Source of the DNA: Minisyncoccota bacterium
Lineage (GTDB): Bacteria; Patescibacteriota; Minisyncoccia; Phycocordibacterales; UBA6899
Direction of reading: 5' to 3'
Assembly: GCA_035583355.1 (NCBI GenBank)
Contig: DATEZQ010000003.1
Coordinates: 1,844-65,843, forward strand
DNA: 64,000 nt
Under the pieces are notes generated by a model that did no database searches, was not told the origin of the DNA, and saw nothing but the letters and a program-made list of their open reading frames with translations. The first letter of the stretch is position 1. Each line of letters opens with the position of its first letter. Below are positions 2,344 through 19,810 of the stretch, piece by piece. A program made the translations under genes and the position numbers.

Positions 2344-5300
2344 TTACATTTTTTCGAGTGCAAATTCAAGCTTTCCCTCAAGTAGCGCTACCGACTGCGT
2401 CGTTTCGCCTTCCTTGATGTCGAGGATGGTCGCCTCAACCGAGAGCATTTCCTGCATGTCGAGCGCAAAAGCCATTGCCTCCTCATTACCTGCGATAAGC
2501 AATCGTGCTGCCTCACCAGGATTGAACCCTGAGCGCTTGCGCTCTTCCTGAATCGCGCGAAGCACGTCACGCATCACTCCCTCGCGCTTAAGCTCTGGAG
2601 TCAAAACAAGATCAAGCTCTACAGCATCAGCGAGAAGGGCTGCGTCATGTGAAACAGTCTTTACATTAAGCTCATCGGCAATGATTGCAGTAAGAGCGGC
2701 GTCCGCAACGAGTGCTTTGTTACCCACATAAAGTGCGGCGAGTGGCTGACGCACCTTGATGCCGTTCTTTGCACGCTGCTCAAGTGCAAGTGTTACCGTC
2801 TTACGCACCGCCTCCATCGTATCGAGCACAGTGTGTAGAGCAACACCAGGCACTGGCCACTGCTCAAGATGCACACTTTCAAGCTTCTTCTCCACAGGAA
2901 GACGCTGATAGAGATCCTCGGCAAGGAATGGAGTGAACGGTGCAAGCAAACGCGAGAGTTGGAATAATATCCAGCCAAGCGTCATCTCTGCAAATGCCCT
3001 ATCTTCTCCCTCTCCCTTCAAGCGATCGCGTGAGCGGCGAAGCCACCATGTCGAAAGATCATCAATCAGTGGCAAGACTTGCTTTGCTGCACGATCAAGC
3101 TCGTTGGTCTCAAGGAAGTGTGTGGCCTCGTTATGCGTCTCATTCCATCGTGCAATGATCCAACGATCAAGTGCATGAGTCGACTTCGGCTGCTCACGGA
3201 GCACCGCCTGTCCCGTAGCATACATCTCATAGAACGAGCGTACATTATCAAGACGTAATGTGAGTTTCTTTGTGATCTCATCAACACCAAGTGTTGAAAA
3301 TTTCAGATCCTCGCCGCGCATCGCAGGCGACGCAACCATATAGAAGCGTAGTGCATCAGCACCATACTTCCCTACGACTTCCATAGGGTCTGGATAATTA
3401 CGTAGCTTCTTGCTCATCTTTTCACCGTTCTCAGCAAGGACAAGACCGTTTACAATCACATTTCGAAATGGCGACTTTCCAAAGAGTCCAATTCCAAGAA
3501 GCAGCATAGAATAGAACCATCCTCTTGTCTGGTCAAGACCCTCGGCGATGAAATGCGCCGGGAAATTATGCAAGAACATCTTTCCTGCATCATCATTCTC
3601 ATTACCACTAAAGTAGTGCTGCGCAAATGGCATTGAGCCAGACTCAAACCAGCAGTCGAACACTTCGGGAATACGCCTCATCTTGCCTCCACAGGCACAG
3701 CTGAAGACCACATCATCAATGTGCGGTCGATGGAGATCAAGCGCGTAGTCAGCATTATGCGGAAGTGGAGCAAACTTCATCTTATGCACCTCAGCATTAA
3801 GGACATAATCATCGTTTGCATTTTTACGCAATCGTATCGTCTCCGCCTCATCTGCGCCACGCGCTACTGCATCAAGCATCCATACACCATACTCGTGTGT
3901 AACAAAAAGAATGTTCTTCCCTTCATACACTGCGTCGGTCGCATAAAATGCCTCTCCAAAGCGACGCTTCATATCACGCAATGATTCACCATTCGGCGCT
4001 GCACGCGCAAACTTTTCCTCAACTGACGGGAACATCGCGCGATACTCATCGACACTGTGACCATTGAGGTCACCTGCATCTACCTCGTGCAGTCGTGCAT
4101 CATAAATGATTTGATCTCGAGGAATACCAACCATATCTGCCGCAATCTCTGCCGTCTCCTTCGTACGCTGCATCGGTGAAGCGATAATGATATCGATCTT
4201 CATCTTCTGTAACTTTTCACCAGCACTCTTCACTTGCTCTATCCCCTTCTTCGTCAGTGGATTAACGTCATCTTCGCGACAGGAAATGATATCCTGCACA
4301 TTTGACTCTGCCTCACCATGGCGAATTGCGAAATAGTGGTTCTTCGGAGGCTGCGCATCACGCAGCTCATCAATATGACCAATGACACGAATAGCATCAC
4401 AGTCCTTACATTTCCATACAGGAATTGCTGCACCCCAATAGCGGCTGCGCGAAATCGCCCAATCGCGTGCTCCCTCAAGCCAATTATGGAAACGGCCGTG
4501 GCCTACAGCATCTGGCACCCAATTGATTTCCTTATTTGCTTCAACAGCCTTCTCTTTAATCTCGCCCACATTCACAAACCATGAAGATGCCGCGTAATTG
4601 ATGAGTGGCCAATCGCAGCGCCAACAATACGGATAGCTGTGAGTCATATTCTCCTTGCTGAAGAAGAGATTTGCATCTTGAAGGAACTTGATGACAGCGA
4701 TGTCGGTGCTGAGTCGTACGCGGTCATCATCGCTCTTTGGTTTCACTGACATTCCCGCAAAACCAGTCACTTCATCCTTAATCGTTCCATCCATGCGCAC
4801 ATGCTGAATGAACGGGAGTTGTTCCCGCTTCCCGAGCTGCATATCATCATCACCAAATGCTGGCGCAATATGCACTATCCCTGTACCCGTATCACTTGCA
4901 ACGAAATCTGCACCATAGACATGCCAACCACGCTCGCGGTTTATGAGCTCAGCGTCATTAGCATAATCCATAAATGGAGGAATATATGCGATTCCAACGA
5001 GCTCTTTACCTGATACTTCTCCGGTCACGACAGCGCTTGGAGCAATACGAGGCAATGTATCCTTCTGTGCAATATATGTTGTCGCATCTCCAGGAAGCGT
5101 AAATCGCACATAAGCAAGATCCACATTGACCGCGAGTGCAACATTTCCCGGCAACGTCCAAGGAGTCGTTGTCCATGCAAGAAGTGCAACATCAGGATTA
5201 TCACGCAACGGAAATTTAAGCGTGACTGAGATATCCTTTACATCCTTATACCCGCCCGCAACCTCTGAGGCAGCGAGTGTCGTCTCACAACGAGGACAAA

Positions 5301-5880
5301 TGTGCATAGACTTGTAGCCCTCATAAATGAGCTTCTTGTCATAGAGTGTTTTGAAGGCCCACCATACACTTGCCATATAGCCAGTATCCATCGTCTTGTA
5401 GGCATGATCCATGTCTACCCAACGACCAACACGTGGTACGATTTCCTTCCATTCTTTGTCATACATCAGCACCGATGCTTCTGCTTTCGCATTAAAGGCA
5501 CCGATACCATATTCCTCGATCTGTCGCTTATGCTCGAGGCCAAGTTCTTGTTCAATGAGATTCTCCACCGGAAGTCCGTGGCAGTCCCAACCCCACACAC
5601 GGCGCACATAGCGTCCACGCATCGTCTGAAAACGAGGAATGACATCCTTGATGGTACCCGCAAGAATATGCCCATAGTGGGGCAAGCCGGTGGCAAATGG
5701 TGGCCCATCGAAAAACACGAACGGCTCATTGTGCGCAGTAGCTTCGAGTGACTTCTTAAAAATACGCTCTTTCGTCCAAAAATCTCCGATACGCACCTCG
5801 CGCTCGGCTAATGTTTCCTTTGAAAGATCGTGTGGCTGCTTTGAATCCATAGTGTTCTTATAGTATAGGAAAATGACCAT
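2344..5880 (-). CDS. ileS: Isoleucyl-tRNA synthetase (eukaryote-like type 2) with an inserted histidine-phosphatase-like domain
   Basis: HIGH region PPFATGLPHYGHIL, WDCHGLP, KMSKS-like EKMSKKLRNYPDP, zinc knuckle CKDC...CACGG, WFESGSMPF. The protein is 1178 aa, against about 1000 aa for a typical IleRS. An extra ~200 aa segment (aa ~510-712) carries RHGEAESN, LTKKGIEQ, IIIASPMQRTKETA and VTHEYG motifs. The likely true start is the Met at 5850 (MDSKQPH). Confidence 0.9.
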   Translation of the reverse strand: MVIFLYYKNTMDSKQPHDLSKETLAEREVRIGDFWTKERIFKKSLEATAHNEPFVFFDGPPFATGLPHYGHILAGTIKDVIPRFQTMRGRYVRRVWGWDCHGLPVENLIEQELGLEHKRQIEEYGIGAFNAKAEASVLMYDKEWKEIVPRVGRWVDMDHAYKTMDTGYMASVWWAFKTLYDKKLIYEGYKSMHICPRCETTLAASEVAGGYKDVKDISVTLKFPLRDNPDVALLAWTTTPWTLPGNVALAVNVDLAYVRFTLPGDATTYIAQKDTLPRIAPSAVVTGEVSGKELVGIAYIPPFMDYANDAELINRERGWHVYGADFVASDTGTGIVHIAPAFGDDDMQLGKREQLPFIQHVRMDGTIKDEVTGFAGMSVKPKSDDDRVRLSTDIAVIKFLQDANLFFSKENMTHSYPYCWRCDWPLINYAASSWFVNVGEIKEKAVEANKEINWVPDAVGHGRFHNWLEGARDWAISRSRYWGAAIPVWKCKDCDAIRVIGHIDELRDAQPPKNHYFAIRHGEAESNVQDIISCREDDVNPLTKKGIEQVKSAGEKLQKMKIDIIIASPMQRTKETAEIAADMVGIPRDQIIYDARLHEVDAGDLNGHSVDEYRAMFPSVEEKFARAAPNGESLRDMKRRFGEAFYATDAVYEGKNILFVTHEYGVWMLDAVARGADEAETIRLRKNANDDYVLNAEVHKMKFAPLPHNADYALDLHRPHIDDVVFSCACGGKMRRIPEVFDCWFESGSMPFAQHYFSGNENDDAGKMFLHNFPAHFIAEGLDQTRGWFYSMLLLGIGLFGKSPFRNVIVNGLVLAENGEKMSKKLRNYPDPMEVVGKYGADALRFYMVASPAMRGEDLKFSTLGVDEITKKLTLRLDNVRSFYEMYATGQAVLREQPKSTHALDRWIIARWNETHNEATHFLETNELDRAAKQVLPLIDDLSTWWLRRSRDRLKGEGEDRAFAEMTLGWILFQLSRLLAPFTPFLAEDLYQRLPVEKKLESVHLEQWPVPGVALHTVLDTMEAVRKTVTLALEQRAKNGIKVRQPLAALYVGNKALVADAALTAIIADELNVKTVSHDAALLADAVELDLVLTPELKREGVMRDVLRAIQEERKRSGFNPGEAARLLIAGNEEAMAFALDMQEMLSVEATILDIKEGETTQSVALLEGKLEFALEKM

Positions 5881-5950
5881 TTATCAAGAATGTGGTGTTG
5901 TGCAATGTGTGGACTAGCGGAGCCCTAAATCATTTGTTAGTATTATCCTC

Positions 5951-6220
5951 ATGGAAGTACCATCAGCAAACACGGAGAATACCACGAATGAAGCACAAGG
6001 GAGCTTCATGGGTCCGATCTGGAAAATCACACTCATGACAATGCTCGGCACCGCATGCATCGGTTATGCAATAAACCTTTTTGCACTTGAAAAGCGACAT
6101 GAGGAAAATATGCAGGAGGTTGCAAAAGTCGAATTCCGTACACAGCAATATGCAGCGTACCGAGACATTTACAAGACCGAAGGCAAGGCCGCTGCGGACG
6201 CCACACTAAAAAACAACTAA
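5951..6220 (+). CDS. Small hypothetical membrane protein (single predicted TM segment)
   Basis: 89 aa ORF with a hydrophobic segment ITLMTMLGTACIGYAINLFAL. It sits immediately upstream of a same-size ORF of similar architecture. Confidence 0.4.
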   Translation: MEVPSANTENTTNEAQGSFMGPIWKITLMTMLGTACIGYAINLFALEKRHEENMQEVAKVEFRTQQYAAYRDIYKTEGKAAADATLKNN

Positions 6221-6221
6221 T

Positions 6222-6491
6222 ATGGCACGCAAAGAAATCATTCAGTTGAGTGGAACGCACATCCTCATCGCAATGGCCGTCATTGGTAATCTCCTTGTTG
6301 GCGCCTTTCTCTATCGCTATCACTCTTTTGCACTCTTCCGCCTTGAGGATAGAGACCTTGCAACTTTCACAAAAGCGCAGCGCGCAGAACGCGATGTCAA
6401 AGAAGAGATTCGCGAACTTGAGCATGCCAAATCATGGAACGAGACAGCCTACGCACTCAAGAATCCTTGGAGTGCGGACGAAAAACTCTAA
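6222..6491 (+). CDS. Small hypothetical membrane protein, apparent tandem paralog of the 5951-6220 ORF
   Basis: 89 aa with one TM segment (ILIAMAVIGNLLVGAFLY) and a charged C-terminus. It is followed by a clean rho-independent terminator. Confidence 0.4.
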   Translation: MARKEIIQLSGTHILIAMAVIGNLLVGAFLYRYHSFALFRLEDRDLATFTKAQRAERDVKEEIRELEHAKSWNETAYALKNPWSADEKL

Positions 6492-6494
6492 AAC

Positions 6495-6520
6495 AAAAAA
6501 CGAGCCTTCGGCTCGTTTTT
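6495..6520. terminator. Rho-independent terminator, bidirectional
   Basis: aaaaaacgagcc-ttcg-gctcgttttt hairpin with T-run, lying between the convergent 6222-6491 (+) ORF and argS (-). Confidence 0.7.
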
Positions 6521-6527
6521 GTTTTGT

Positions 6528-8234
6528 TTACATCTTGCTTGGCACAGCGATGCCGAGCAATGTAAGCCCGCGCTCTATCACGATGCTTGTCGCTTTGGCA
6601 ATTGCGAGATTATAGCCAATCGCAGGATTCTCAGTATCGAGAATCTTGGTATTACCGTACCAGCCATTGAATGCCTGTGCGGTCTCAAGCAGATAGGTCG
6701 CGATATGATGTGGTGCCCATTCATTTATTGAAAGCTGCACTACCTCAGGGAAACGCGTGAGCATTTTCTCAATCTGGGTGACCTCGGTAGTCGGGACTAC
6801 ACACTCTCCCCGCTTGCAGGCCACATACCCTTCAGCTGCAGCCTTCGTGAGCACAGAACGTGCGCGCACAACGGTATATTGCAGATACGGACCAGAATCA
6901 CCCTCAAACGAAAGAGAAGTGTCGGGATCAAAGTTGATATTTTTTCCTGCTGCGGCACGCAAAATTGCGAACTTTATCGCTCCTATTGCGACGCGATCAA
7001 TATCCTCATCAATAAGCTGCGGCGCACGTTCACGTACTTCTTCTGCGAGTGTATCGATGATATCCGCTGCTAGTGGTACGCCACCAAGACGCGAAGACAT
7101 CTTCTGTCCCTTGAATGTCATGCGACCATGCGTACGATGTATGGAAAGCTTTTCCCAGAGTGGATTTATCCTTTTCGCTGCCGCGAGGACAACATCGAAG
7201 TGTGAAGCCTGTTCGTGATCGGTGATAAAAAGTGAGAGATCAGGATTATATCGATCAAATTTGAGCGAGAGCAAGCCGAGGTCTTTTGCTTCGTACGTTG
7301 GTCGTCCCTCCTTGTTCACAAACACACGCGTATGGAGGCCATCCTGTTCACCCTCATAGATGATTGCTCCTTCACTCTTTGCAAACACATCTCCAATATG
7401 TGTAGCAACAAGCTGCTCCCCCACCTTTCCCGCCTCACTCTCAAAAATATACGCATCGAAATGTGAACCGAGGCGCTTCGTAGTCTCTACAAAGTAGTCA
7501 AGATTAATAGTCTTACACTCCTCGAAGATATCAAGTATGTTTCCTGGTATGCGCTCGAAGAGTGTCTTCGAGATCTCGAGCACCTCAGCTTTCACCACAT
7601 CACTCTCTTCATAAAGCTGCGTCCCCTTCGCATAGCAAGCACCTAAGTATGCAAGTTTATCTTGCTCCGTCTTGCACGCACGCAGTTTTTCAATACCATC
7701 TTGAGCTACAACATACACCGCTTTTGCAATACCAAGCGAGACGTCGGATGGAAAAGAAATAGAAGTCACCTTGCCTGCCCCCGAAAATTCTGCAAGTCGT
7801 TTGATCGACTCACCTACGGCATTGTTCATCAAGTGGCCGATGTGAAACGGTTTGAATAAGTTTGGACTTGAATGCTCAACGAGAATTTTCTTACCGTCCC
7901 ACGAATCCTCTTTTCCATAGATTTCACCTTCCTCCACAATGCGCTCCACCTCACCACGAAATACCTCATCTTCGATCGTGAAATTAATAAAACCAGGACC
8001 AGCAATTGCAATAGTCTTTACTCCTTTGATGGCACGGGAGGTAAGCGCCACGACAAGCTCCTCGGCAAGCGTACGAGGATTCTTCCCTACACTCTTTGCG
8101 ACGACCATAGCGGCATTTGTCGCAAAATCACCATGTGATGCAACAGTCGGATGCTCCAATCCAAAAGCAACCTCAGGCAGGCCAATAGCAATAAGCGTAG
8201 CGCTAATTTCGCGCCTCAGGAATTCGCTGAACAT
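6528..8234 (-). CDS. argS: Arginyl-tRNA synthetase
   Basis: HPTVASHGDFATNAAM, AGPGFINF, HIGH-type motif SSPNLFKPFHIGHLMN, C-terminal ...LGIAVPSKM typical of ArgRS. Confidence 0.9.
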   Translation of the reverse strand: MFSEFLRREISATLIAIGLPEVAFGLEHPTVASHGDFATNAAMVVAKSVGKNPRTLAEELVVALTSRAIKGVKTIAIAGPGFINFTIEDEVFRGEVERIVEEGEIYGKEDSWDGKKILVEHSSPNLFKPFHIGHLMNNAVGESIKRLAEFSGAGKVTSISFPSDVSLGIAKAVYVVAQDGIEKLRACKTEQDKLAYLGACYAKGTQLYEESDVVKAEVLEISKTLFERIPGNILDIFEECKTINLDYFVETTKRLGSHFDAYIFESEAGKVGEQLVATHIGDVFAKSEGAIIYEGEQDGLHTRVFVNKEGRPTYEAKDLGLLSLKFDRYNPDLSLFITDHEQASHFDVVLAAAKRINPLWEKLSIHRTHGRMTFKGQKMSSRLGGVPLAADIIDTLAEEVRERAPQLIDEDIDRVAIGAIKFAILRAAAGKNINFDPDTSLSFEGDSGPYLQYTVVRARSVLTKAAAEGYVACKRGECVVPTTEVTQIEKMLTRFPEVVQLSINEWAPHHIATYLLETAQAFNGWYGNTKILDTENPAIGYNLAIAKATSIVIERGLTLLGIAVPSKM

Positions 8235-15668: not shown

Positions 15669-16151
15669 TTACCAGAGACTTGCCCCTGGAGAATATATTT
15701 TCCAAGTATTCACTCTCGTCGTATCTACTAGTTGCGGCTGTGAACTTGCCACAAATCCTGGCTCGTTAATCAATCTATCAATAAATGCATACTCGATACC
15801 ATTGGATATATAAATATAACAACTTATACTACCAACTTTATCCGCTGTAGGCTCAGACGGTATTGCACTAATATAAATTGGTGCCAAACCAGGGATTACA
15901 TTATTCGCGGAAAACGAACCCCAGAGCGCACATTCTGAACGCGTCAGACCTCCTGTGCTTGGGTAAGACCCATTCGCGTCATAATACATATCGAGAGCCA
16001 ACTTCACCTCACGAAAATCAGAAACACGTTTTGCGAGCCTTGCTTTCACACGCGCAGCGCCAATGGTCGCAAGTATGACACTTGAAAGCAACACCATTGT
16101 CGCAATGACAACAAGTAGCTCAACAAGGCTAAATCCGCGCTCATATTTCAT
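15669..16151 (-). CDS. Type IV pilin / pseudopilin with prepilin leader
   Basis: MKYERG|FSLVELLVVIATMVLL class III signal peptide with a G/F cleavage-methylation site. Start called at the internal Met. Confidence 0.8.
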   Translation of the reverse strand: MKYERGFSLVELLVVIATMVLLSSVILATIGAARVKARLAKRVSDFREVKLALDMYYDANGSYPSTGGLTRSECALWGSFSANNVIPGLAPIYISAIPSEPTADKVGSISCYIYISNGIEYAFIDRLINEPGFVASSQPQLVDTTRVNTWKIYSPGASLW

Positions 16152-16274
16152 GTACCTATTATACACGAGGAATTGGCACGCTCGACTGAAATATCAAAAA
16201 AACTATAATAAATGTTACTAGAGTCCAAACAACGTCTGTAGAGCAATAAAATAAACGCCCAAGGGCGTTATATT

Positions 16275-17453
16275 TTAATCAAGATGTTCACGCAAAGCTT
16301 TCAAGATACTCGCGGATTCATTCGTCTGCACTACGAGTATGCGTGCGGATGAATTATCAGCAGAAATATCAAGGAACGCTGCCTCGCCAGGAGTACCAAC
16401 GAGCTGCGCATTCAATGCAGGGTTAAGCGCAAGGCCGAACGCTGAAAGACTTTCGATGATGCGATTGCGCACCACAGGTGCCCCTTCTCCAATAGCAGCA
16501 GTAAAGACGAGTGCATCGAGTCCACCAAGGACTGCGATATAACTCCCTACGGTCTTCACGACTTGATACACAAAGAGATCAAGTGCGAGCTTTGCCTTTT
16601 CGTCACCCTCCCCCGAGAGCCTGATGATATCGCGCATATCACTACTTACTCCAGAGAGTCCGAGAAGTCCAGATTCTTTATTGCAAAGCGTCTCGATCTC
16701 CGCACGAGTCTTCCCTGCCGAAAGTAGTGCAAAGATAATGCTTGGGTCAATAGTCCCACTACGCGTCCCCATCATCAAGCCCTCAAGCGGAGTAAAGCCC
16801 ATCGATGTATCAATGGTCTTTCCGTCACGAAGTGCGGTAATGCTTGCGCCGCTGCCGAGATGAAGCACGATCGTGCGCGTAATTGCAACCTCAGATGCAT
16901 GTTCATTCAGTCTATCCCATATTGAGGCGACGGAGTGTCCGTGGTATCCATAACGTGCAAAACCAAATTCATCAACCACTTTTGCAGAGAGGCCATAACT
17001 CTTCGCCACGTTAGGCATCGTGTGATGGAATGCACTATCGGACGCTGAGATCAGTCTTGTATTCGGAAGTGCAGCGCGAATGAGTGCGAGCTCGAGCCGT
17101 GCAGGATGTATATGGAGCGGCGCAAGATATTCCTGTGCCTCAAATTTCTCCATAAATTCATCATCCACGACACGATGCTCTGCGAAATAATCTCCAGGGG
17201 CAACTGTGCGCACTGCAATCGCACCAATCGTGGCGATACCACGGGCAGTACAATCAGCAATCACACGATCAATCGCATGCTGAAACTCCTCGGAAGTGAT
17301 CATCACTTCGATTCGTCCTCCATCAGTCACTGCGAGCTTGAACTCCTGTCCAACTTTTTCAAAATGCCAAACAATGAGTTTTTCATTGCCCTTATAGAGT
17401 GCGTATTTCTTGGAAGAACTTCCGATATTTACAATTATTTGTTCCATGTCCAT
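16275..17453 (-). CDS. ackA: Acetate kinase
   Basis: IVNIGSSSKKYALY, HLGSGASI, DTSMGFTPLEGLMMGTRSGTIDPS signatures. Confidence 0.9.
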   Translation of the reverse strand: MDMEQIIVNIGSSSKKYALYKGNEKLIVWHFEKVGQEFKLAVTDGGRIEVMITSEEFQHAIDRVIADCTARGIATIGAIAVRTVAPGDYFAEHRVVDDEFMEKFEAQEYLAPLHIHPARLELALIRAALPNTRLISASDSAFHHTMPNVAKSYGLSAKVVDEFGFARYGYHGHSVASIWDRLNEHASEVAITRTIVLHLGSGASITALRDGKTIDTSMGFTPLEGLMMGTRSGTIDPSIIFALLSAGKTRAEIETLCNKESGLLGLSGVSSDMRDIIRLSGEGDEKAKLALDLFVYQVVKTVGSYIAVLGGLDALVFTAAIGEGAPVVRNRIIESLSAFGLALNPALNAQLVGTPGEAAFLDISADNSSARILVVQTNESASILKALREHLD

Positions 17454-19789
17454 GCGTCAATTTCATCAGGATCCATTCCGTGTTCAATAATATACGAGCG
17501 GTGTGCTTTGAGCTTCTCCTCATACTTTGCAACAATTCCCATTCCAAAGTCTCGTGCTATCCAGTCACGCTCCATGAGGGTTGTGAAGATATCAATTACG
17601 AGATGGTAACGACTTGTCTTGTTGCGCACATGCATATCAAATGGAGTAGTCGTTGAACCACTCTCAGAGTAGCCGTGCACATGGAAACGGTTCGGGTTTG
17701 ACTCATGAGGATTATCAAACAAGATTGCTTTCACCGCCTCGGTATAACCGTGGAAATTGAAAATGACTGGCTTATCCACCGTGAAGAAATCATGGAAGTG
17801 TGGGCGTGGTGGCACACAATCAGTTCCTCCGATTCCATTCAATGCCGAGAACTCGAGCACATTCACGAAACGCGTGCGCAATGTTGGATACTCGTCCTTT
17901 GCAAGCGAGATAGCAGCTAGTGCCTCCTTCACCATGTAACTACCTGAAGCAGCCATCACGATTTCTGGATTTTCATCACTTGCGAATTGCCACGTACTGA
18001 TTCCGTGTTTCAGCTCCTCCTTCGCTTCCGCATCAGTAAGCCATAGTGGTTCGTCGGTCTTTCCTGCTGCAATCACGTTGATCGAATTCTTTGATTCCAA
18101 GCAGTGCTGCATTACGAGTGCTGCAGAGTTTGCATCTGCGGGGAAATAAACGTGCACAAAATCTCCGTGACGAGAAAGCATATCCGAGATGAATCCTGGA
18201 TTCTGGTGTGAGAAGCCATTATGATCTTGGCGCCAACTTGATGACGTGAGGATATAGTTCGCAGAAGGACAATCGCCTCTCCATGGAAGCTCAAGACAGA
18301 TACGAAGATACTTCGCGTACTGATCCACCATGCTCGTAATCACCTGAACGAATGCTTCATATGAAGCGAGTACACCATGGCGACCGGTCAAAATATAACC
18401 CTGCATCATTCCCTGCATCGTATGCTCAGAGAGCATTTCATAGACATGTCCACCAGGAGCTAAGTCCTTATCCCATGGCTTTCGAGGCCAATTGAATGAA
18501 CGAGTCGTTGCCTTAAATACTGCATCGAGCTTATTCGAGTAGGTCTCATCTGGAGAAAAGAGTGAAATATTGCCTTGCTCCTTATTGGCCTTCATGACCT
18601 CTGCAAGATAGATACCTACTTGCTTCATCGAGCTTGCTACATCGATACCACGCTTATCCGTCGTCTTGAGCGCGACTTCAGGAAGTGTGAGCTTGAGCAA
18701 TTCACGAGTTGCAGTACATGCATGCTTGGTGCTTCCCATGCGCAAGTGCTCATTTGGCACAAGCGACATGATCTCATCGGTAAACTTCCCATCAACAAAG
18801 AGCTCATGGAAGTTATATGAGCGCATCCACGCCTCCACTGCCGCGCGCTGCTCGGGATCGGTGCGCGCCTCGAGTCCAACAACTTGGTGCGAGAGACAAT
18901 TATCCTCATACTTCTCACCCTGCAATTCCTTGATACCTGACCAGCCCTTTGGTGTACGCATCACAATCATTGGAAATCGCGGTGCAACCACCTCAACACC
19001 AGAGCGTGCTGCCTCTTGGATCATGCGAATTTCTTCGTATGCCTGGTCAAGCGCACGGATCATCTGTGCATCAACGTCGCCCTTATATTCATCAACGATC
19101 ATCGGAGCATAGCCATAGCCATGGAAGAGATCCATCAATTCCTCATCGCTCATACGTCCGAAGAATGTGGGACCTGAGATCTTGTAGCCATTTAAGTGGA
19201 GCACAGGGAGCACGGCACCATCCTTCTTTGGGCTAATGAGTTTATTTGCATGCCAAGCAGTCGCGAGCGGACCTGTCTCAGCTTCACCGTCTCCAACAAG
19301 ACAAGTAACGATCAGTTCGGGATTATCGAGCACCGCACCATATGATGATGCGAGTGAATAACCAAGTTCCCCACCCTCAAGAATCACTCCGGGAGTCTCA
19401 GGACTTGAGTGGCTCGGGAAGCCATATGGCCAACTAAACTTACGAGCAATCTCTGCGATGCCTGCTTCGTCACGAAGAATTGTTGGATGAAACTGTGTAA
19501 GCGAGCCCTCGAGAAAAACATTCGCCTGAAGTCCAGGAAAACCGTGTCCTGGTCCAAGGACGAACATCATGTCGACATTCTTCTCAATAATCAGACGATT
19601 AAGGTGCGCATAAAGGAAATTTATTCCTGGAACGCTTCCCCAGTGACCAAGCAATCGTGGCTTGATATGTTCTTCGCGAAGCGGCTCCGTGAGCATATAA
19701 TTTCCGCGTAAATAAATCTGAATGGCAGAGAGATAATTCGCGGCGCGAACATATTTCTGCAAACGAGCAATGGTGTCATTTTCAGTCAT
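17435..19789 (-). CDS. xfp: Xylulose-5-phosphate/fructose-6-phosphate phosphoketolase
   Basis: 784 aa, N-terminal RLLGHWGSVPGINFLYAHLNRLI phosphoketolase signature with TPP-binding regions; its 3' end overlaps the ackA start by 19 nt. Confidence 0.9.
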   Translation of the reverse strand: MTENDTIARLQKYVRAANYLSAIQIYLRGNYMLTEPLREEHIKPRLLGHWGSVPGINFLYAHLNRLIIEKNVDMMFVLGPGHGFPGLQANVFLEGSLTQFHPTILRDEAGIAEIARKFSWPYGFPSHSSPETPGVILEGGELGYSLASSYGAVLDNPELIVTCLVGDGEAETGPLATAWHANKLISPKKDGAVLPVLHLNGYKISGPTFFGRMSDEELMDLFHGYGYAPMIVDEYKGDVDAQMIRALDQAYEEIRMIQEAARSGVEVVAPRFPMIVMRTPKGWSGIKELQGEKYEDNCLSHQVVGLEARTDPEQRAAVEAWMRSYNFHELFVDGKFTDEIMSLVPNEHLRMGSTKHACTATRELLKLTLPEVALKTTDKRGIDVASSMKQVGIYLAEVMKANKEQGNISLFSPDETYSNKLDAVFKATTRSFNWPRKPWDKDLAPGGHVYEMLSEHTMQGMMQGYILTGRHGVLASYEAFVQVITSMVDQYAKYLRICLELPWRGDCPSANYILTSSSWRQDHNGFSHQNPGFISDMLSRHGDFVHVYFPADANSAALVMQHCLESKNSINVIAAGKTDEPLWLTDAEAKEELKHGISTWQFASDENPEIVMAASGSYMVKEALAAISLAKDEYPTLRTRFVNVLEFSALNGIGGTDCVPPRPHFHDFFTVDKPVIFNFHGYTEAVKAILFDNPHESNPNRFHVHGYSESGSTTTPFDMHVRNKTSRYHLVIDIFTTLMERDWIARDFGMGIVAKYEEKLKAHRSYIIEHGMDPDEIDAWTWNK

Positions 19790-19810
19790 GCGCCTATTTT
19801 ATCACAGAAA

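What the first reader, a model, noticed from the sequence alone, without database searches (positions are those of the whole stretch)
3745..4353. Isoleucyl-tRNA synthetase carries an in-frame ~200 aa histidine-phosphatase (phosphoglycerate-mutase family) domain inside its zinc knuckle
The ileS product is 1178 aa. Between the first Cys pair of the zinc-binding knuckle (VWKCKDCDAIRVIGHIDEL) and the second (LHRPHIDDVVFSCACGGKMRR) lies a segment absent from ordinary IleRS. In type-2 IleRS such as the Thermus enzyme, only a short linker separates these elements.

The inserted segment carries the ordered hallmarks of histidine-phosphatase branch 1:
- RHGEAESN (catalytic RHG plus Asn);
- LTKKGIEQ;
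- IIIASPMQRTKETA;
- LHEVDAGDLNG;
- a second catalytic His in ILFVTHEYG.

No intein signatures are present: no Cys/Ser/Thr plus HN splice-junction residues and no homing-endonuclease motifs. The reading frame is continuous with full-length IleRS domains on both sides, so this is a domain insertion, not a gene fusion artefact.

A phosphatase module embedded in an essential aminoacyl-tRNA synthetase could have several roles: phosphohistidine or phospho-substrate hydrolysis, removal of a 2',3'-cyclic or 3'-phosphate on tRNA ends, or resistance to or sensing of a phosphorylated inhibitor. I cannot recall a described IleRS with this architecture.
Basis: partly seen in the sequence, partly recalled or inferred. 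Interest (0 to 1): 0.85.

Follow-up and report, generated by a model that had tools for sequence, protein, structure and literature searches.

The report
Phosphatase domain grafted inside isoleucyl-tRNA synthetase
An essential protein-synthesis enzyme (isoleucyl-tRNA synthetase) of an uncultured ultra-small bacterium carries a complete, apparently active phosphatase inside its catalytic core; in relatives the same phosphatase is a separate gene just upstream, hundreds of related lineages share the fusion, and no searchable paper describes it.

Summary
Window 2344-5880 (-) encodes one continuous type-2 IleRS of 1178 aa (probably 1168 from M11). Residues 514-702 are a complete histidine-phosphatase branch-1 domain (Pfam E=1e-32; AlphaFold pLDDT 92.6). 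It sits in the CP3 zinc-knuckle subdomain, where ordinary IleRS has about 13-40 residues.

It is not an artefact. About 60 species-representative CPR/Patescibacteria genomes and 164 clusters at 50% identity (E<=1e-30) match this region; nearly all of the 150 listed span both junctions. The catalytic residues (R520, H521, N527, R572, E599, H662) are invariant and under purifying selection.

New findings:
- In relatives with an insert-less ileS, the closest free-standing phosphatase lies immediately upstream (argS-phosphatase-ileS-recO). Fused genomes lack that gene.
- Some IleRS carry the domain at two other sites.
- ValRS of Gracilibacteria/Peregrinibacteria carry 1-4 copies, mostly in the homologous CP3 loop.

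The domain is a phosphatase type, not a phosphoglycerate mutase. Its substrate is unknown. I favour a tethered phosphomonoesterase functionally coupled to class Ia aminoacylation over a mere passenger. Eight full-text literature searches found no description, although the sequences are public under generic names.

The parts
2344..5880 (-). ileS: type-2 isoleucyl-tRNA synthetase with an internal phosphatase domain. The ORF is 1178 aa; the probable true start is M11 at 5850.
   Evidence: ORF. TIGR00392 ileS scores 816 bits against a cutoff of 621. Best PDB matches are 8c8v/8c8u (E~1e-210) and 1ile. HYGH at aa 68-71 and KMSKK at aa 821-825. Full-length AF2 gives pLDDT 85.9 and pTM 0.76. Start inferred from the orthologue.
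4390..5880 (-). IleRS N-terminal part (aa 1-497): first half of the Rossmann fold, CP core, CP1 editing domain, CP2, the CP2-3 linker ARDWAISRSRYWG (aa 471-483) and the first Cys pair.
   Evidence: The editing domain matches 1wk8 over aa 210-418. The linker's role in the tRNA CCA/reveromycin pocket comes from PMC7955072.
4399..4410 (-). First Cys pair of the CP3 zinc knuckle (C491-x2-C494).
   Evidence: Read directly from the sequence. Invariant in the 47 closest homologues but kept in only about 37 of 65 across the wider family.
4342..4398 (-). CP3 helix plus short N-linker (aa 495-513, DAIRVIGHIDELRDAQPPK) leading into the graft.
   Evidence: Comparison with unfused CP3 (L078...CEKCDARKVISSLAELTELSGKTLEDIHKPYIDD...).
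3775..4341 (-). Histidine-phosphatase branch-1 domain (aa 514-702). Catalytic residues: R520/H521 (4318-4323), N527, R572 (4165-4167), E599 (4084-4086), H662 (3895-3897).
   Evidence: Pfam PF00300 E=1e-32. AF2 of the insert alone gives pLDDT 92.6 and pTM 0.90. Foldseek finds PspA, PhoE, GpgP and a mycobacterial hydrolase at TM 0.72-0.78. Catalytic residues are invariant in 64/64 and 47/47 homologues. dN is 0.13 with saturated dS.
3742..3774 (-). C-terminal linker FAPLPHNADYA (aa 703-713) with a conserved P-[LI]-P-[HR]-N motif. It is absent from unfused CP3 and from the free-standing phosphatases.
2347..3741 (-). IleRS C-terminal part (aa 714-1178): CP3 return strand with the second Cys pair (C728, C730 at 3691-3699), second half of the Rossmann fold with KMSKK, the anticodon-binding domain and DUF5915.
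6528..8234 (-). argS, the conserved upstream neighbour. In relatives the free-standing phosphatase gene lies between argS and ileS.
5881..6527 (.). argS-ileS gap, the slot that holds the free-standing phosphatase in unfused relatives. Here it contains no phosphatase remnant, only two small opposite-strand ORFs.
   Evidence: hmmsearch of the six-frame ORFs finds no second domain. The small ORFs are also called as genes in the orthologous contig L080.
1657..2283 (-). recO, the conserved downstream neighbour and part of the syntenic block.

Best explanation
SHOWN. The gene encodes a complete, functional-looking type-2 IleRS. Its structurally plastic CP3 subdomain carries a whole small histidine phosphatase (branch 1, phosphatase type, about 190 aa). 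The phosphatase is joined by a short N-linker and a conserved 11-residue C-linker. It has a full catalytic set (Arg-His nucleophile, Asn, second Arg, Glu acid/base, second His), is predicted to fold on its own, and is under purifying selection.

INFERRED ORIGIN. The module derives from an operon partner. In related CPR genomes its closest free-standing homologue is encoded 5-40 nt upstream of an insert-less ileS. Fused genomes have lost that gene.

INFERRED MECHANISM. The phosphatase works as an additional active site physically tethered to a class Ia synthetase. It removes a phosphate from a phosphomonoester linked to the aminoacylation cycle. Tethering, either by co-translation from an operon or in one polypeptide, guarantees 1:1 co-localisation. 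CP3 follows directly on the CP2-3 linker that lines the tRNA CCA-end pocket. The most plausible substrate classes are therefore a phosphorylated tRNA 3' end (2'/3'-phosphate, or cyclic or pyrophosphorylated CCA) or a nucleotide or by-product of the reaction (AMP, PPi-type terminal phosphate). The substrate itself is not established.
For: Architecture and fold.

Not an artefact and widespread:
- 64 fused loci among species-representative CPR genomes, found with patterns internal to the phosphatase.
- Continuous ORFs.
- 164 clusters at 50% identity with E<=1e-30.
- All 120 best full-length hits carry PF00300.

Active-site conservation: R520, H521, N527, E599 and H662 are kept in 64/64, and R572 in addition in 47/47. 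dN of the insert equals that of the editing and C-terminal domains, with dS saturated.

Operon origin and linkage:
- The free-standing relatives P0008, P0004, P0002 and P0013, and loci L064, L066 and L067, lie directly upstream of an insert-less ileS (961-994 aa where the gene is complete) in the order argS-phos-ileS-recO.
- The fused loci keep argS-ileS-recO with no second copy within 8 kb.
- ileS-adjacent free-standing copies are more similar to the fused domains (126-151 bits) than non-adjacent ones (82-120 bits).

Recurrent association with class Ia synthetases:
- Extra sites B and C occur in IleRS P0170, P0163 and P0172.
- In the ValRS family, 71 of 120 proteins carry 1-4 copies, mainly in the homologous CP3 loop. 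Their nucleophile His is kept in 84/85 and the RHG Arg in 83/85.

Location: CP3 is variable between IleRS structures (PMC7191050). The CP2-3 linker forms part of the tRNA CCA pocket (PMC7955072).
Against: - No substrate evidence of any kind exists.
- The three IleRS insertion sites are far apart in sequence. ValRS can carry 2-4 copies. Both facts argue against a single precise geometry relative to the synthetic site.
- Fused domains are mildly acidic (median net charge -3), with no autonomous RNA-binding signature.
- CPR IleRS and ValRS also host other odd inserts (IS200-like, GNAT, PF04480, PF00216), so these enzymes may simply be permissive hosts.
- Insert-less ValRS shows no phosphatase neighbour.
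- The crude host tree does not resolve how many times site A was colonised, or the polarity of the change (fusion versus fission).
Confidence: 0.55

Rival explanations
1. Passenger model. The phosphatase is an independent housekeeping enzyme, for example a broad-specificity or cofactor-pathway phosphomonoesterase. It was fused into its downstream neighbour by a local rearrangement and is tolerated because CP3 is a permissive loop. There is no functional coupling to aminoacylation beyond co-expression.
For: - CP3 topology varies naturally.
- aaRSs are known as preferred insertion hosts (PMC13114784).
- CPR IleRS and ValRS carry other unrelated inserts.
- Several distant insertion sites and tandem copies suggest that geometry is unimportant.
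- The nearest structures are metabolic phosphatases such as PspA, GpgP and the riboflavin HFP.
Against: - The same subfamily entered class Ia synthetases in at least five independent events (IleRS sites A, B and C; ValRS CP3 and CP2).
- In an unbiased genome scan with domain-internal patterns, 64 of 69 hits were inside IleRS, 3 were directly upstream of ileS, and none was in another host protein.
- The free-standing form is tightly coupled to ileS across divergent lineages.
Confidence: 0.28
2. Sensor or allosteric module. The domain binds, and slowly turns over, a phosphorylated metabolite. Through its two tethers in CP3, next to the CCA pocket, it tunes IleRS or ValRS activity to the metabolic state.
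For: Insertion into a loop adjacent to the active site is the classical architecture of allosteric switches. The CP2-3 linker is part of the tRNA pocket. Binding residues would be conserved as observed.
Against: No evidence distinguishes binding from catalysis. Free-standing operon-encoded homologues cannot act through covalent tethers. Sites B and C are elsewhere in the protein.
Confidence: 0.08
3. Moonlighting glycolytic enzyme. The insert is a small cofactor-dependent phosphoglycerate mutase that supplies lower glycolysis.
For: The best NCBIfam hit is the archaeal small dPGM model NF038349 (92.9 bits), and the best sequence match in PDB is the 211-aa S. pombe PGM 1fzt.
Against: - The score is far below the model cutoff (225).
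- dPGM substrate-binding residues are missing: EVDAG aligns to the yeast ERYYG (consensus ERHYG), and there is no Arg-Arg pair or HGN motif.
- Foldseek aligns phosphatase-type members better (rmsd 2.3-3.0 A) than dPGMs (4-6 A).
- 1:1 stoichiometry with an aaRS is poorly suited to a high-flux enzyme.
Confidence: 0.05
4. Artefact or selfish element: a frameshift or mis-assembly joining two genes, an intein, or a degenerate pseudo-enzyme spacer.
For: One related locus (L057) has the phosphatase split over two frames. L058 and L059 have a truncated cap region.
Against: About 50 independent complete ORFs. Homologous junctions. No HINT or endonuclease domain, and the +1 residue after HN is not C/S/T. 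Catalytic residues are invariant and under purifying selection.
Confidence: 0.02

Closest known systems
Type-2 (eukaryote/archaea-like) IleRS, e.g. Thermus thermophilus IleRS (1ILE) and Priestia megaterium IleRS2 (8C8U/8C8V)
   Same: Full domain set: Rossmann fold with HYGH/KMSKK, CP core, CP1 editing domain, CP2, CP3 with a Cys4 zinc knuckle as in Thermus, anticodon-binding domain and DUF5915 C-terminal domain. E~1e-210 to 8c8v and above the TIGR00392 cutoff.
   Different: About 196 extra residues forming an autonomous phosphatase domain inside CP3. No solved or described IleRS has a catalytic domain there.
Small phosphatase-type members of histidine-phosphatase branch 1: PhoE/YhfR (1H2E), PspA phosphoserine phosphatase (4IJ5), GpgP Rv2419c (4QIH), CobC
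   Same: Size of about 190 aa, same fold (TM 0.72-0.78), a complete catalytic set and a short cap.
   Different: Only 21-31% identity. No NCBIfam equivalog cutoff is reached. The known members are free-standing, whereas this subfamily is either encoded directly upstream of ileS or embedded in IleRS or ValRS. Its substrate is unknown.
Bifunctional RNase H / acid phosphatase (Rv2228c/RnhC type; NCBIfam NF005567)
   Same: A CobC-like histidine phosphatase is covalently joined to a nucleic-acid enzyme. It is the second-best NCBIfam match of the insert (77 bits).
   Different: There the fusion is end to end (C-terminal) and the partner is RNase H. Here the domain is nested inside the catalytic core of an aaRS. 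The score is below the model cutoff of 326. That the phosphatase's role is still unclear in that system is from my own knowledge.
Catalytic domains nested in aaRS cores: CP1 editing domain of IleRS/ValRS/LeuRS, INS domain of bacterial ProRS, and GNAT-containing IleRS (NCBIfam NF040702)
   Same: A second catalytic module is inserted into or appended to a synthetase. aaRSs are recognised insertion hosts (PMC13114784).
   Different: Those modules act on aminoacyl-tRNA or adenylate (editing or acylation). A phosphomonoesterase has no known role in the aminoacylation cycle.

Membership tests
Histidine phosphatase superfamily, branch 1 (PF00300) | Significant match to the family profile | tested here: met
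   113.8 bits, E=1e-32, against a cutoff of 21.7.
Histidine phosphatase superfamily, branch 1 (PF00300) | RHG motif with nucleophilic His, plus second Arg, second His and Glu proton donor | tested here: met
   R520-H521-G522, N527, R572, E599 and H662 align with the catalytic residues of PhoE and PGM and are invariant across homologues.
Histidine phosphatase superfamily, branch 1 (PF00300) | Alpha/beta fold of the superfamily | tested here: met
   AF2 pLDDT 92.6. Foldseek probability 1.00 and TM 0.72-0.78 to PspA, PhoE and GpgP.
Histidine phosphatase superfamily, branch 1 (PF00300) | Phosphatase activity via a phosphohistidine intermediate | not testable with these tools
   Requires enzymology (pNPP, nucleotides, 3'-phospho-tRNA; H521A control).
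Cofactor-dependent phosphoglycerate mutase (dPGM) | Reaches a curated dPGM model cutoff | tested here: not met
   Best is NF038349 at 92.9 bits against a cutoff of 225. All other dPGM models score lower still.
Cofactor-dependent phosphoglycerate mutase (dPGM) | Mutase-specific substrate residues: ERHYG Tyr, Lys100, Arg116/Arg117, HGN Asn (E. coli numbering, from own knowledge) | tested here: not met
   In the alignment to 1fzt the insert has EVDAG, 'KFARAAP' (no RR pair) and THEYG.
Isoleucyl-tRNA synthetase (TIGR00392 ileS), type 2 | Equivalog model cutoff; HIGH and KMSKS motifs; CP1 editing domain | tested here: met
   816 bits against a cutoff of 621. HYGH at aa 68-71 and KMSKK at aa 821-825. 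The editing domain matches 1wk8, with the WTTTPWTLPGN and GTGIVHIAP motifs.
Mupirocin-resistance IleRS MupA/MupB | Exception-model cutoff (1900 bits) | tested here: not met
   689 and 663 bits. This is a type-2 relative only.
Intein | HINT domain; Cys/Ser/Thr at intein position 1 and at extein +1 after a terminal HN | tested here: not met
   No HINT or endonuclease Pfam hit. The junction residues are K/N at the N side, and HN is followed by A/E/K/D.
Known anti-phage defence components (PADLOC) | Match to any PADLOC model | tested here: not met
   No hits for the insert or three free-standing relatives.

The most novel reading that the evidence does not exclude
The phosphatase is a third catalytic station for the mobile tRNA CCA end. 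Class Ia editing synthetases already shuttle the 3' end between the synthetic and editing sites. In these CPR bacteria it could also be delivered to the CP3-borne phosphatase, which would strip a 2'/3'-phosphate, a cyclic phosphate or a toxin-added pyrophosphate. The synthetase would thereby 'heal' damaged tRNA-Ile or tRNA-Val immediately before charging, giving a built-in tRNA-repair or anti-toxin function in an aaRS.
Probability: 0.12. Interest if true: 0.9.

Novelty: new variant of a known kind. Interest (0 to 1): 0.68.

Why it matters
Aminoacyl-tRNA synthetases are among the best-studied enzymes. The catalytic modules known to be nested in their cores are editing domains. A conserved, apparently active phosphomonoesterase embedded in the core of IleRS, and in parallel in ValRS, implies a phosphate-removal step linked to tRNA charging that textbook aminoacylation does not include. 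The alternative is an unusually clear natural case of a neighbouring gene being captured into an internal loop of an essential enzyme.

The two states form a 'Rosetta-stone' pair: a separate upstream gene, or an internal domain. This makes the functional link directly testable with recombinant proteins. It also concerns the very poorly understood physiology of CPR/Patescibacteria. Finally, it explains why automatic annotation downgrades these essential genes to 'class I tRNA ligase family protein' or 'hypothetical protein'.

Tried and rejected
- **Frameshift or mis-assembly:** rejected because independent loci have continuous ORFs.
- **Intein:** rejected.
- **Recent horizontal insertion:** there is no GC or skew anomaly, and dS is saturated between orthologues.
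- **dPGM identity:** rejected on residues, model cutoffs and structural neighbours.
- **Defence-system component:** no PADLOC hit.
- **RNA elements near the gene:** Rfam finds only tRNAs in the window.
- **Second phosphatase copy in the window:** none.
- **Single origin of the site-A fusion:** a crude NJ tree of host proteins left this unresolved, because unfused L067 nests among fused sequences.
- **Net-charge analysis for an RNA-binding signature:** uninformative.
- **AFDB Foldseek search:** library unavailable.
- **Literature:** eight full-text searches combining IleRS/aaRS, histidine phosphatase/PGM and CPR/Patescibacteria/Parcubacteria. Searches returned nothing. Searches returned papers, but none describes the architecture. 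A 2026 survey of domain insertions does not mention this pair.
Full report
**1. Observation**

The window contains one uninterrupted ORF on the minus strand, 2344..5880, of 1178 aa. The flagged coordinates 3745-4353 translate exactly to residues 510-712.
- VWKCKDCD at 488
- RHGEAESN at 520
- LTKKGIEQ at 542
- IIIASPMQRTKETA at 564
- LHEVDAGDLNG at 597
- ILFVTHEYG at 657
- LHRPHIDDVVFSCACGG at 716

Pfam finds tRNA-synt_1 in two stretches (E=1.7e-128). It finds His_Phos_1 over residues 518-684 (E=3e-31; 1e-32 for the excised segment), followed by Anticodon_1 and DUF5915. The protein passes the NCBIfam ileS equivalog cutoff (816 against 621 bits). Its best solved relatives are type-2 IleRS (8c8v/8c8u at E~1e-210; 1ile at 2e-194).

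In the alignment to 8c8v, query 497 corresponds to chain 465 and query 707 to chain 479. About 196 residues are therefore additional. Base composition shows nothing unusual across the insert. The closest orthologue starts at MESKQ, and AF2 confidence is below 50 for residues 1-17. The real start is therefore probably M11 at window 5850.

**2. Anatomy**

Published IleRS structures call the host element the CP3 subdomain. It is zinc-binding in Thermus, lacks zinc in Candida and Staphylococcus, and has a different topology in each (PMC7191050). It follows directly on the CP2-3 linker ARDWNVSRNRYWG. That linker helps form the pocket for the tRNA CCA end, the pocket occupied by reveromycin A in yeast IleRS (PMC7955072). 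The window has ARDWAISRSRYWG at residues 471-483.

Compare an unfused relative, L078: C-x2-C, DARKVISSLAELTELSGKTLEDIHKPYIDD, C-x-C. In the window the graft replaces the short 'SGKT' turn between the CP3 helix and the L-D-L-H-R-P-x-I-D-D strand. A short N-linker (QPPK) leads into 189 residues of phosphatase. These are followed by an 11-residue C-linker, FAPLPHNADYA, whose P-[LI]-P-[HR]-N motif is conserved among fused proteins. The motif is absent from unfused CP3 and from free-standing phosphatases.

The insert alone is predicted with pLDDT 92.6 and pTM 0.90. In the full-length model (pLDDT 85.9, pTM 0.76) it is among the most confident regions. Its nearest solved structures are small phosphatase-type members:
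- PspA (4ij5/4ij6)
- mycobacterial hydrolase (6s2q)
- PhoE (1h2e)
- the riboflavin-pathway HFP (9mmh)
- GpgP Rv2419c (4qih)

These match at TM 0.72-0.78 and rmsd 2.3-3.0 A, whereas true dPGMs align at rmsd 4-6 A.

**3. Phosphatase, not mutase**

In the alignment with S. pombe PGM and PhoE, the catalytic Arg-His, Asn, second Arg, Glu and second His are all present. The residues that bind the distal part of bisphosphoglycerate in mutases are absent. The insert has EVDAG where the yeast enzyme has ERYYG (consensus ERHYG), has no Arg-Arg pair, and has THEYG instead of HGN. The identity of those mutase residues comes from my own knowledge of dPGM.

No NCBIfam equivalog is reached. The best are the archaeal dPGM model (92.9 against 225 bits), bifunctional RNase H/acid phosphatase (77 against 326) and CobC (76 against 163). 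The free-standing relatives behave the same way. This is therefore an unclassified subfamily of branch-1 histidine phosphatases.

**4. Not an artefact, and not rare**

- A scan of one genome per GTDB species used two peptide patterns lying inside the phosphatase. It returned 69 loci, of which 64 are IleRS with the domain at the same site. All are from Patescibacteria/CPR: Lloyd-, Wolfe- (including the complete genome CP011209.1), Kaiser-, Zambryski-, Yanofsky- and Nomurabacteria, Paceibacterota, and others.
- About 50 complete loci have continuous ORFs of 1061-1315 aa.
- An exhaustive HMMER search of 1.84 billion cluster representatives found 164 clusters with E<=1e-30. Nearly all of the 150 listed span both junctions.
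- All 120 best full-length homologues (51-92% identity) carry PF00300. Sources name them 'class I tRNA ligase family protein', 'isoleucyl-tRNA synthetase' or 'hypothetical protein'.
- The window's own sequence is not in the collection. The nearest is 92% identical.

Across 64 fused homologues, R520, H521, N527, E599 and H662 are invariant, although the inserts share only 35-50% identity. The zinc cysteines survive in only about 37 of 65. In the 47 closest homologues, R572 and the four cysteines are invariant as well.

Against an 86%-identical orthologue, synonymous sites are saturated. The insert's dN (0.13) equals that of the editing domain (0.10) and the C-terminal domain (0.13).

**5. Origin**

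The closest free-standing relatives are 180-205 aa, share 36-40% identity with the insert, and align with it end to end. In their genomes they lie directly between argS and an insert-less ileS, followed by recO (ileS is 961-994 aa in the loci where the gene is complete):
- P0008 (L070-72) and P0004 (L073-75)
- P0002 (L076; the downstream gene is cut off at the contig end and has no Pfam look-up, so it is presumed ileS) and P0013 (Moranbacteria, L078/79)
- L064, L066 and L067

The spacing to ileS is only 5-40 nt in most of them. Three other relatives (L068, L069, P0009) are not ileS-linked.

In the fused loci the order is tmk/argS - ileS::phosphatase - recO. No second phosphatase lies within 8 kb, and argS often abuts ileS. 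The window has the same order, and its argS-ileS gap holds no phosphatase remnant.

ileS-adjacent free-standing copies are more similar to fused domains (126-151 bits) than non-adjacent ones are (82-120 bits). The two states, upstream gene or internal domain, are thus mutually exclusive versions of one association.

I infer capture of the upstream gene into CP3. The opposite polarity (fission) and the number of events at this site are not resolved, because a crude NJ tree of host sequences interleaves unfused and fused lineages.

**6. Recurrence**

- **P0170** is an IleRS with an intact, insert-less zinc knuckle. It has phosphatase domains after the WFESGSMPYA motif (site B) and between the KMSKS/stem-contact region and the anticodon-binding domain (site C).
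- **P0163 and P0172** combine site A with site C.
- **P0158** is a ValRS with four copies.

A search seeded with P0158 revealed a whole family. Of the 120 best ValRS hits, from Gracilibacteria, Peregrinibacteria and relatives, 71 carry the domain: 57 once, 12 twice, one three times and one four times. The copies are mostly between WCISRQIWWGHRIPVW and DTWFSSALWPF, the loop homologous to IleRS site A. A second site lies at the start of CP2.

The nucleophile His (84/85) and the RHG Arg (83/85) are retained in almost all ValRS-borne copies. Some copies have lost the Glu or the second His. An insert-less ValRS in this group has no phosphatase neighbour.

This phosphatase subfamily has therefore entered class Ia synthetases in at least five separate events.

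**7. Mechanism**

*Shown:* a complete IleRS plus a complete, conserved phosphatase active site in one polypeptide, and a conserved genomic or physical association of this phosphatase subfamily with IleRS and ValRS.

*Inferred:* the selected property is co-localisation of a phosphomonoesterase with the synthetase. I put about 0.55 on genuine functional coupling. Within that, the candidates are:
- removal of a blocking phosphate from the tRNA 3' end (attractive because class Ia editing enzymes already move the CCA end between sites, and CP3 adjoins the CCA pocket);
- hydrolysis of a nucleotide or by-product of the reaction;
- dephosphorylation of the synthetase itself;
- metabolite sensing.

None of these is supported directly. 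Several facts weigh against a geometry-dependent mechanism and keep the passenger model alive at about 0.28:
- the multiplicity of insertion sites and tandem copies;
- the mildly acidic character of the domains;
- the fact that CPR IleRS and ValRS also host other foreign domains (IS200-like, GNAT, PF04480, PF00216).

There is no link to known defence systems. The distance between the active sites could not be measured, because model coordinates are not exposed.

**8. Comparison and novelty**

The host is an ordinary type-2 IleRS. The guest is an ordinary-looking small histidine phosphatase. The combination, a phosphomonoesterase nested in the CP3 subdomain of a class Ia synthetase, has no described counterpart that I could find. 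Eight full-text searches found no description of it. A 2026 survey of insertion architectures does not mention it.

The nearest precedents are the end-to-end RNase H/acid-phosphatase fusions of actinobacteria (NF005567) and the nested editing domains of aaRSs. The sequences themselves have been public for years under generic names, with the Pfam hit precomputed. The novelty therefore lies in recognition and interpretation, not in the data. I rate it a new variant of a known kind (aaRS with an accessory catalytic domain), with interest 0.68.

Noticed in passing
window 5951-6220 (+) and 6222-6491 (+): Two adjacent small ORFs (89 aa each, each with a hydrophobic stretch) lie on the opposite strand in the argS-ileS gap. 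This is the slot that holds the free-standing phosphatase in unfused relatives. Equivalent genes (89 and 84 aa) are called in the orthologous contig L080.
   Followed up: partly
window 5850-5880 (aa 1-10 of the ORF): The ORF as listed probably starts 10 codons too early. The 86%-identical orthologue begins MESKQ (aligned to M11), and AF2 pLDDT is below 50 for residues 1-17.
   Followed up: partly
window 3742-3774 (aa 703-713): The C-terminal linker of the graft carries a conserved P-[LI]-P-[HR]-N motif. It is found neither in unfused CP3 nor in free-standing phosphatases, and its role is unexplained. The HN is not an intein junction, because the +1 residue is A/E/K/D.
   Followed up: partly
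P0170, P0163, P0172 (metagenomic IleRS, 979-1419 aa): IleRS variants have the phosphatase at two further sites: after the WFESGSMPYA motif, and between the KMSKS region and the anticodon-binding domain. Some carry two domains per protein, and P0170 keeps an intact insert-less zinc knuckle.
   Followed up: partly
P0158, P0294-P0411; L082 5001-8270: A parallel family of ValRS in Gracilibacteria/Peregrinibacteria carries 1-4 copies of the same phosphatase type, mostly in the loop homologous to the IleRS site. Insert-less relatives (e.g. L081) have no phosphatase neighbour.
   Followed up: partly
P0076 (1066 aa): An IleRS has an IS200-like transposase (Y1_Tnp) domain inside the editing domain, the phosphatase in CP3, and a C-terminal GNAT domain. 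NCBIfam has a dedicated 'ileS_w_GNAT' model. Some CPR ValRS also list PF04480, PF00216 or PF16326.
   Followed up: no
L057 1604-2198; L058 8106-8573; L059 8106-8564: L057 has the phosphatase split over two reading frames (a frameshift or a sequencing error). L058 and L059 have lost about 35-45 residues of the cap region but keep the catalytic residues.
   Followed up: no
L066 5894-11316: A contig labelled 'Candidatus Pacearchaeota archaeon' (DPANN) has the same argS-phosphatase-ileS arrangement as the CPR bacteria. This indicates either mis-binning or inter-domain transfer of the gene pair.
   Followed up: no
L078 8948-9487: In the Moranbacteria-type locus a NUDIX hydrolase gene overlaps the end of the insert-less ileS. 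The synthetase is thus flanked by a phosphatase and a nucleotide-diphosphate hydrolase.
   Followed up: no
window 15672-19798 (-): By eye, there are a prepilin-like N-terminus (15672-16193), an acetate-kinase-like ORF (16278-17456) and a phosphoketolase-like ORF (17438-19798). This fits a fermentative CPR lifestyle.
   Followed up: no
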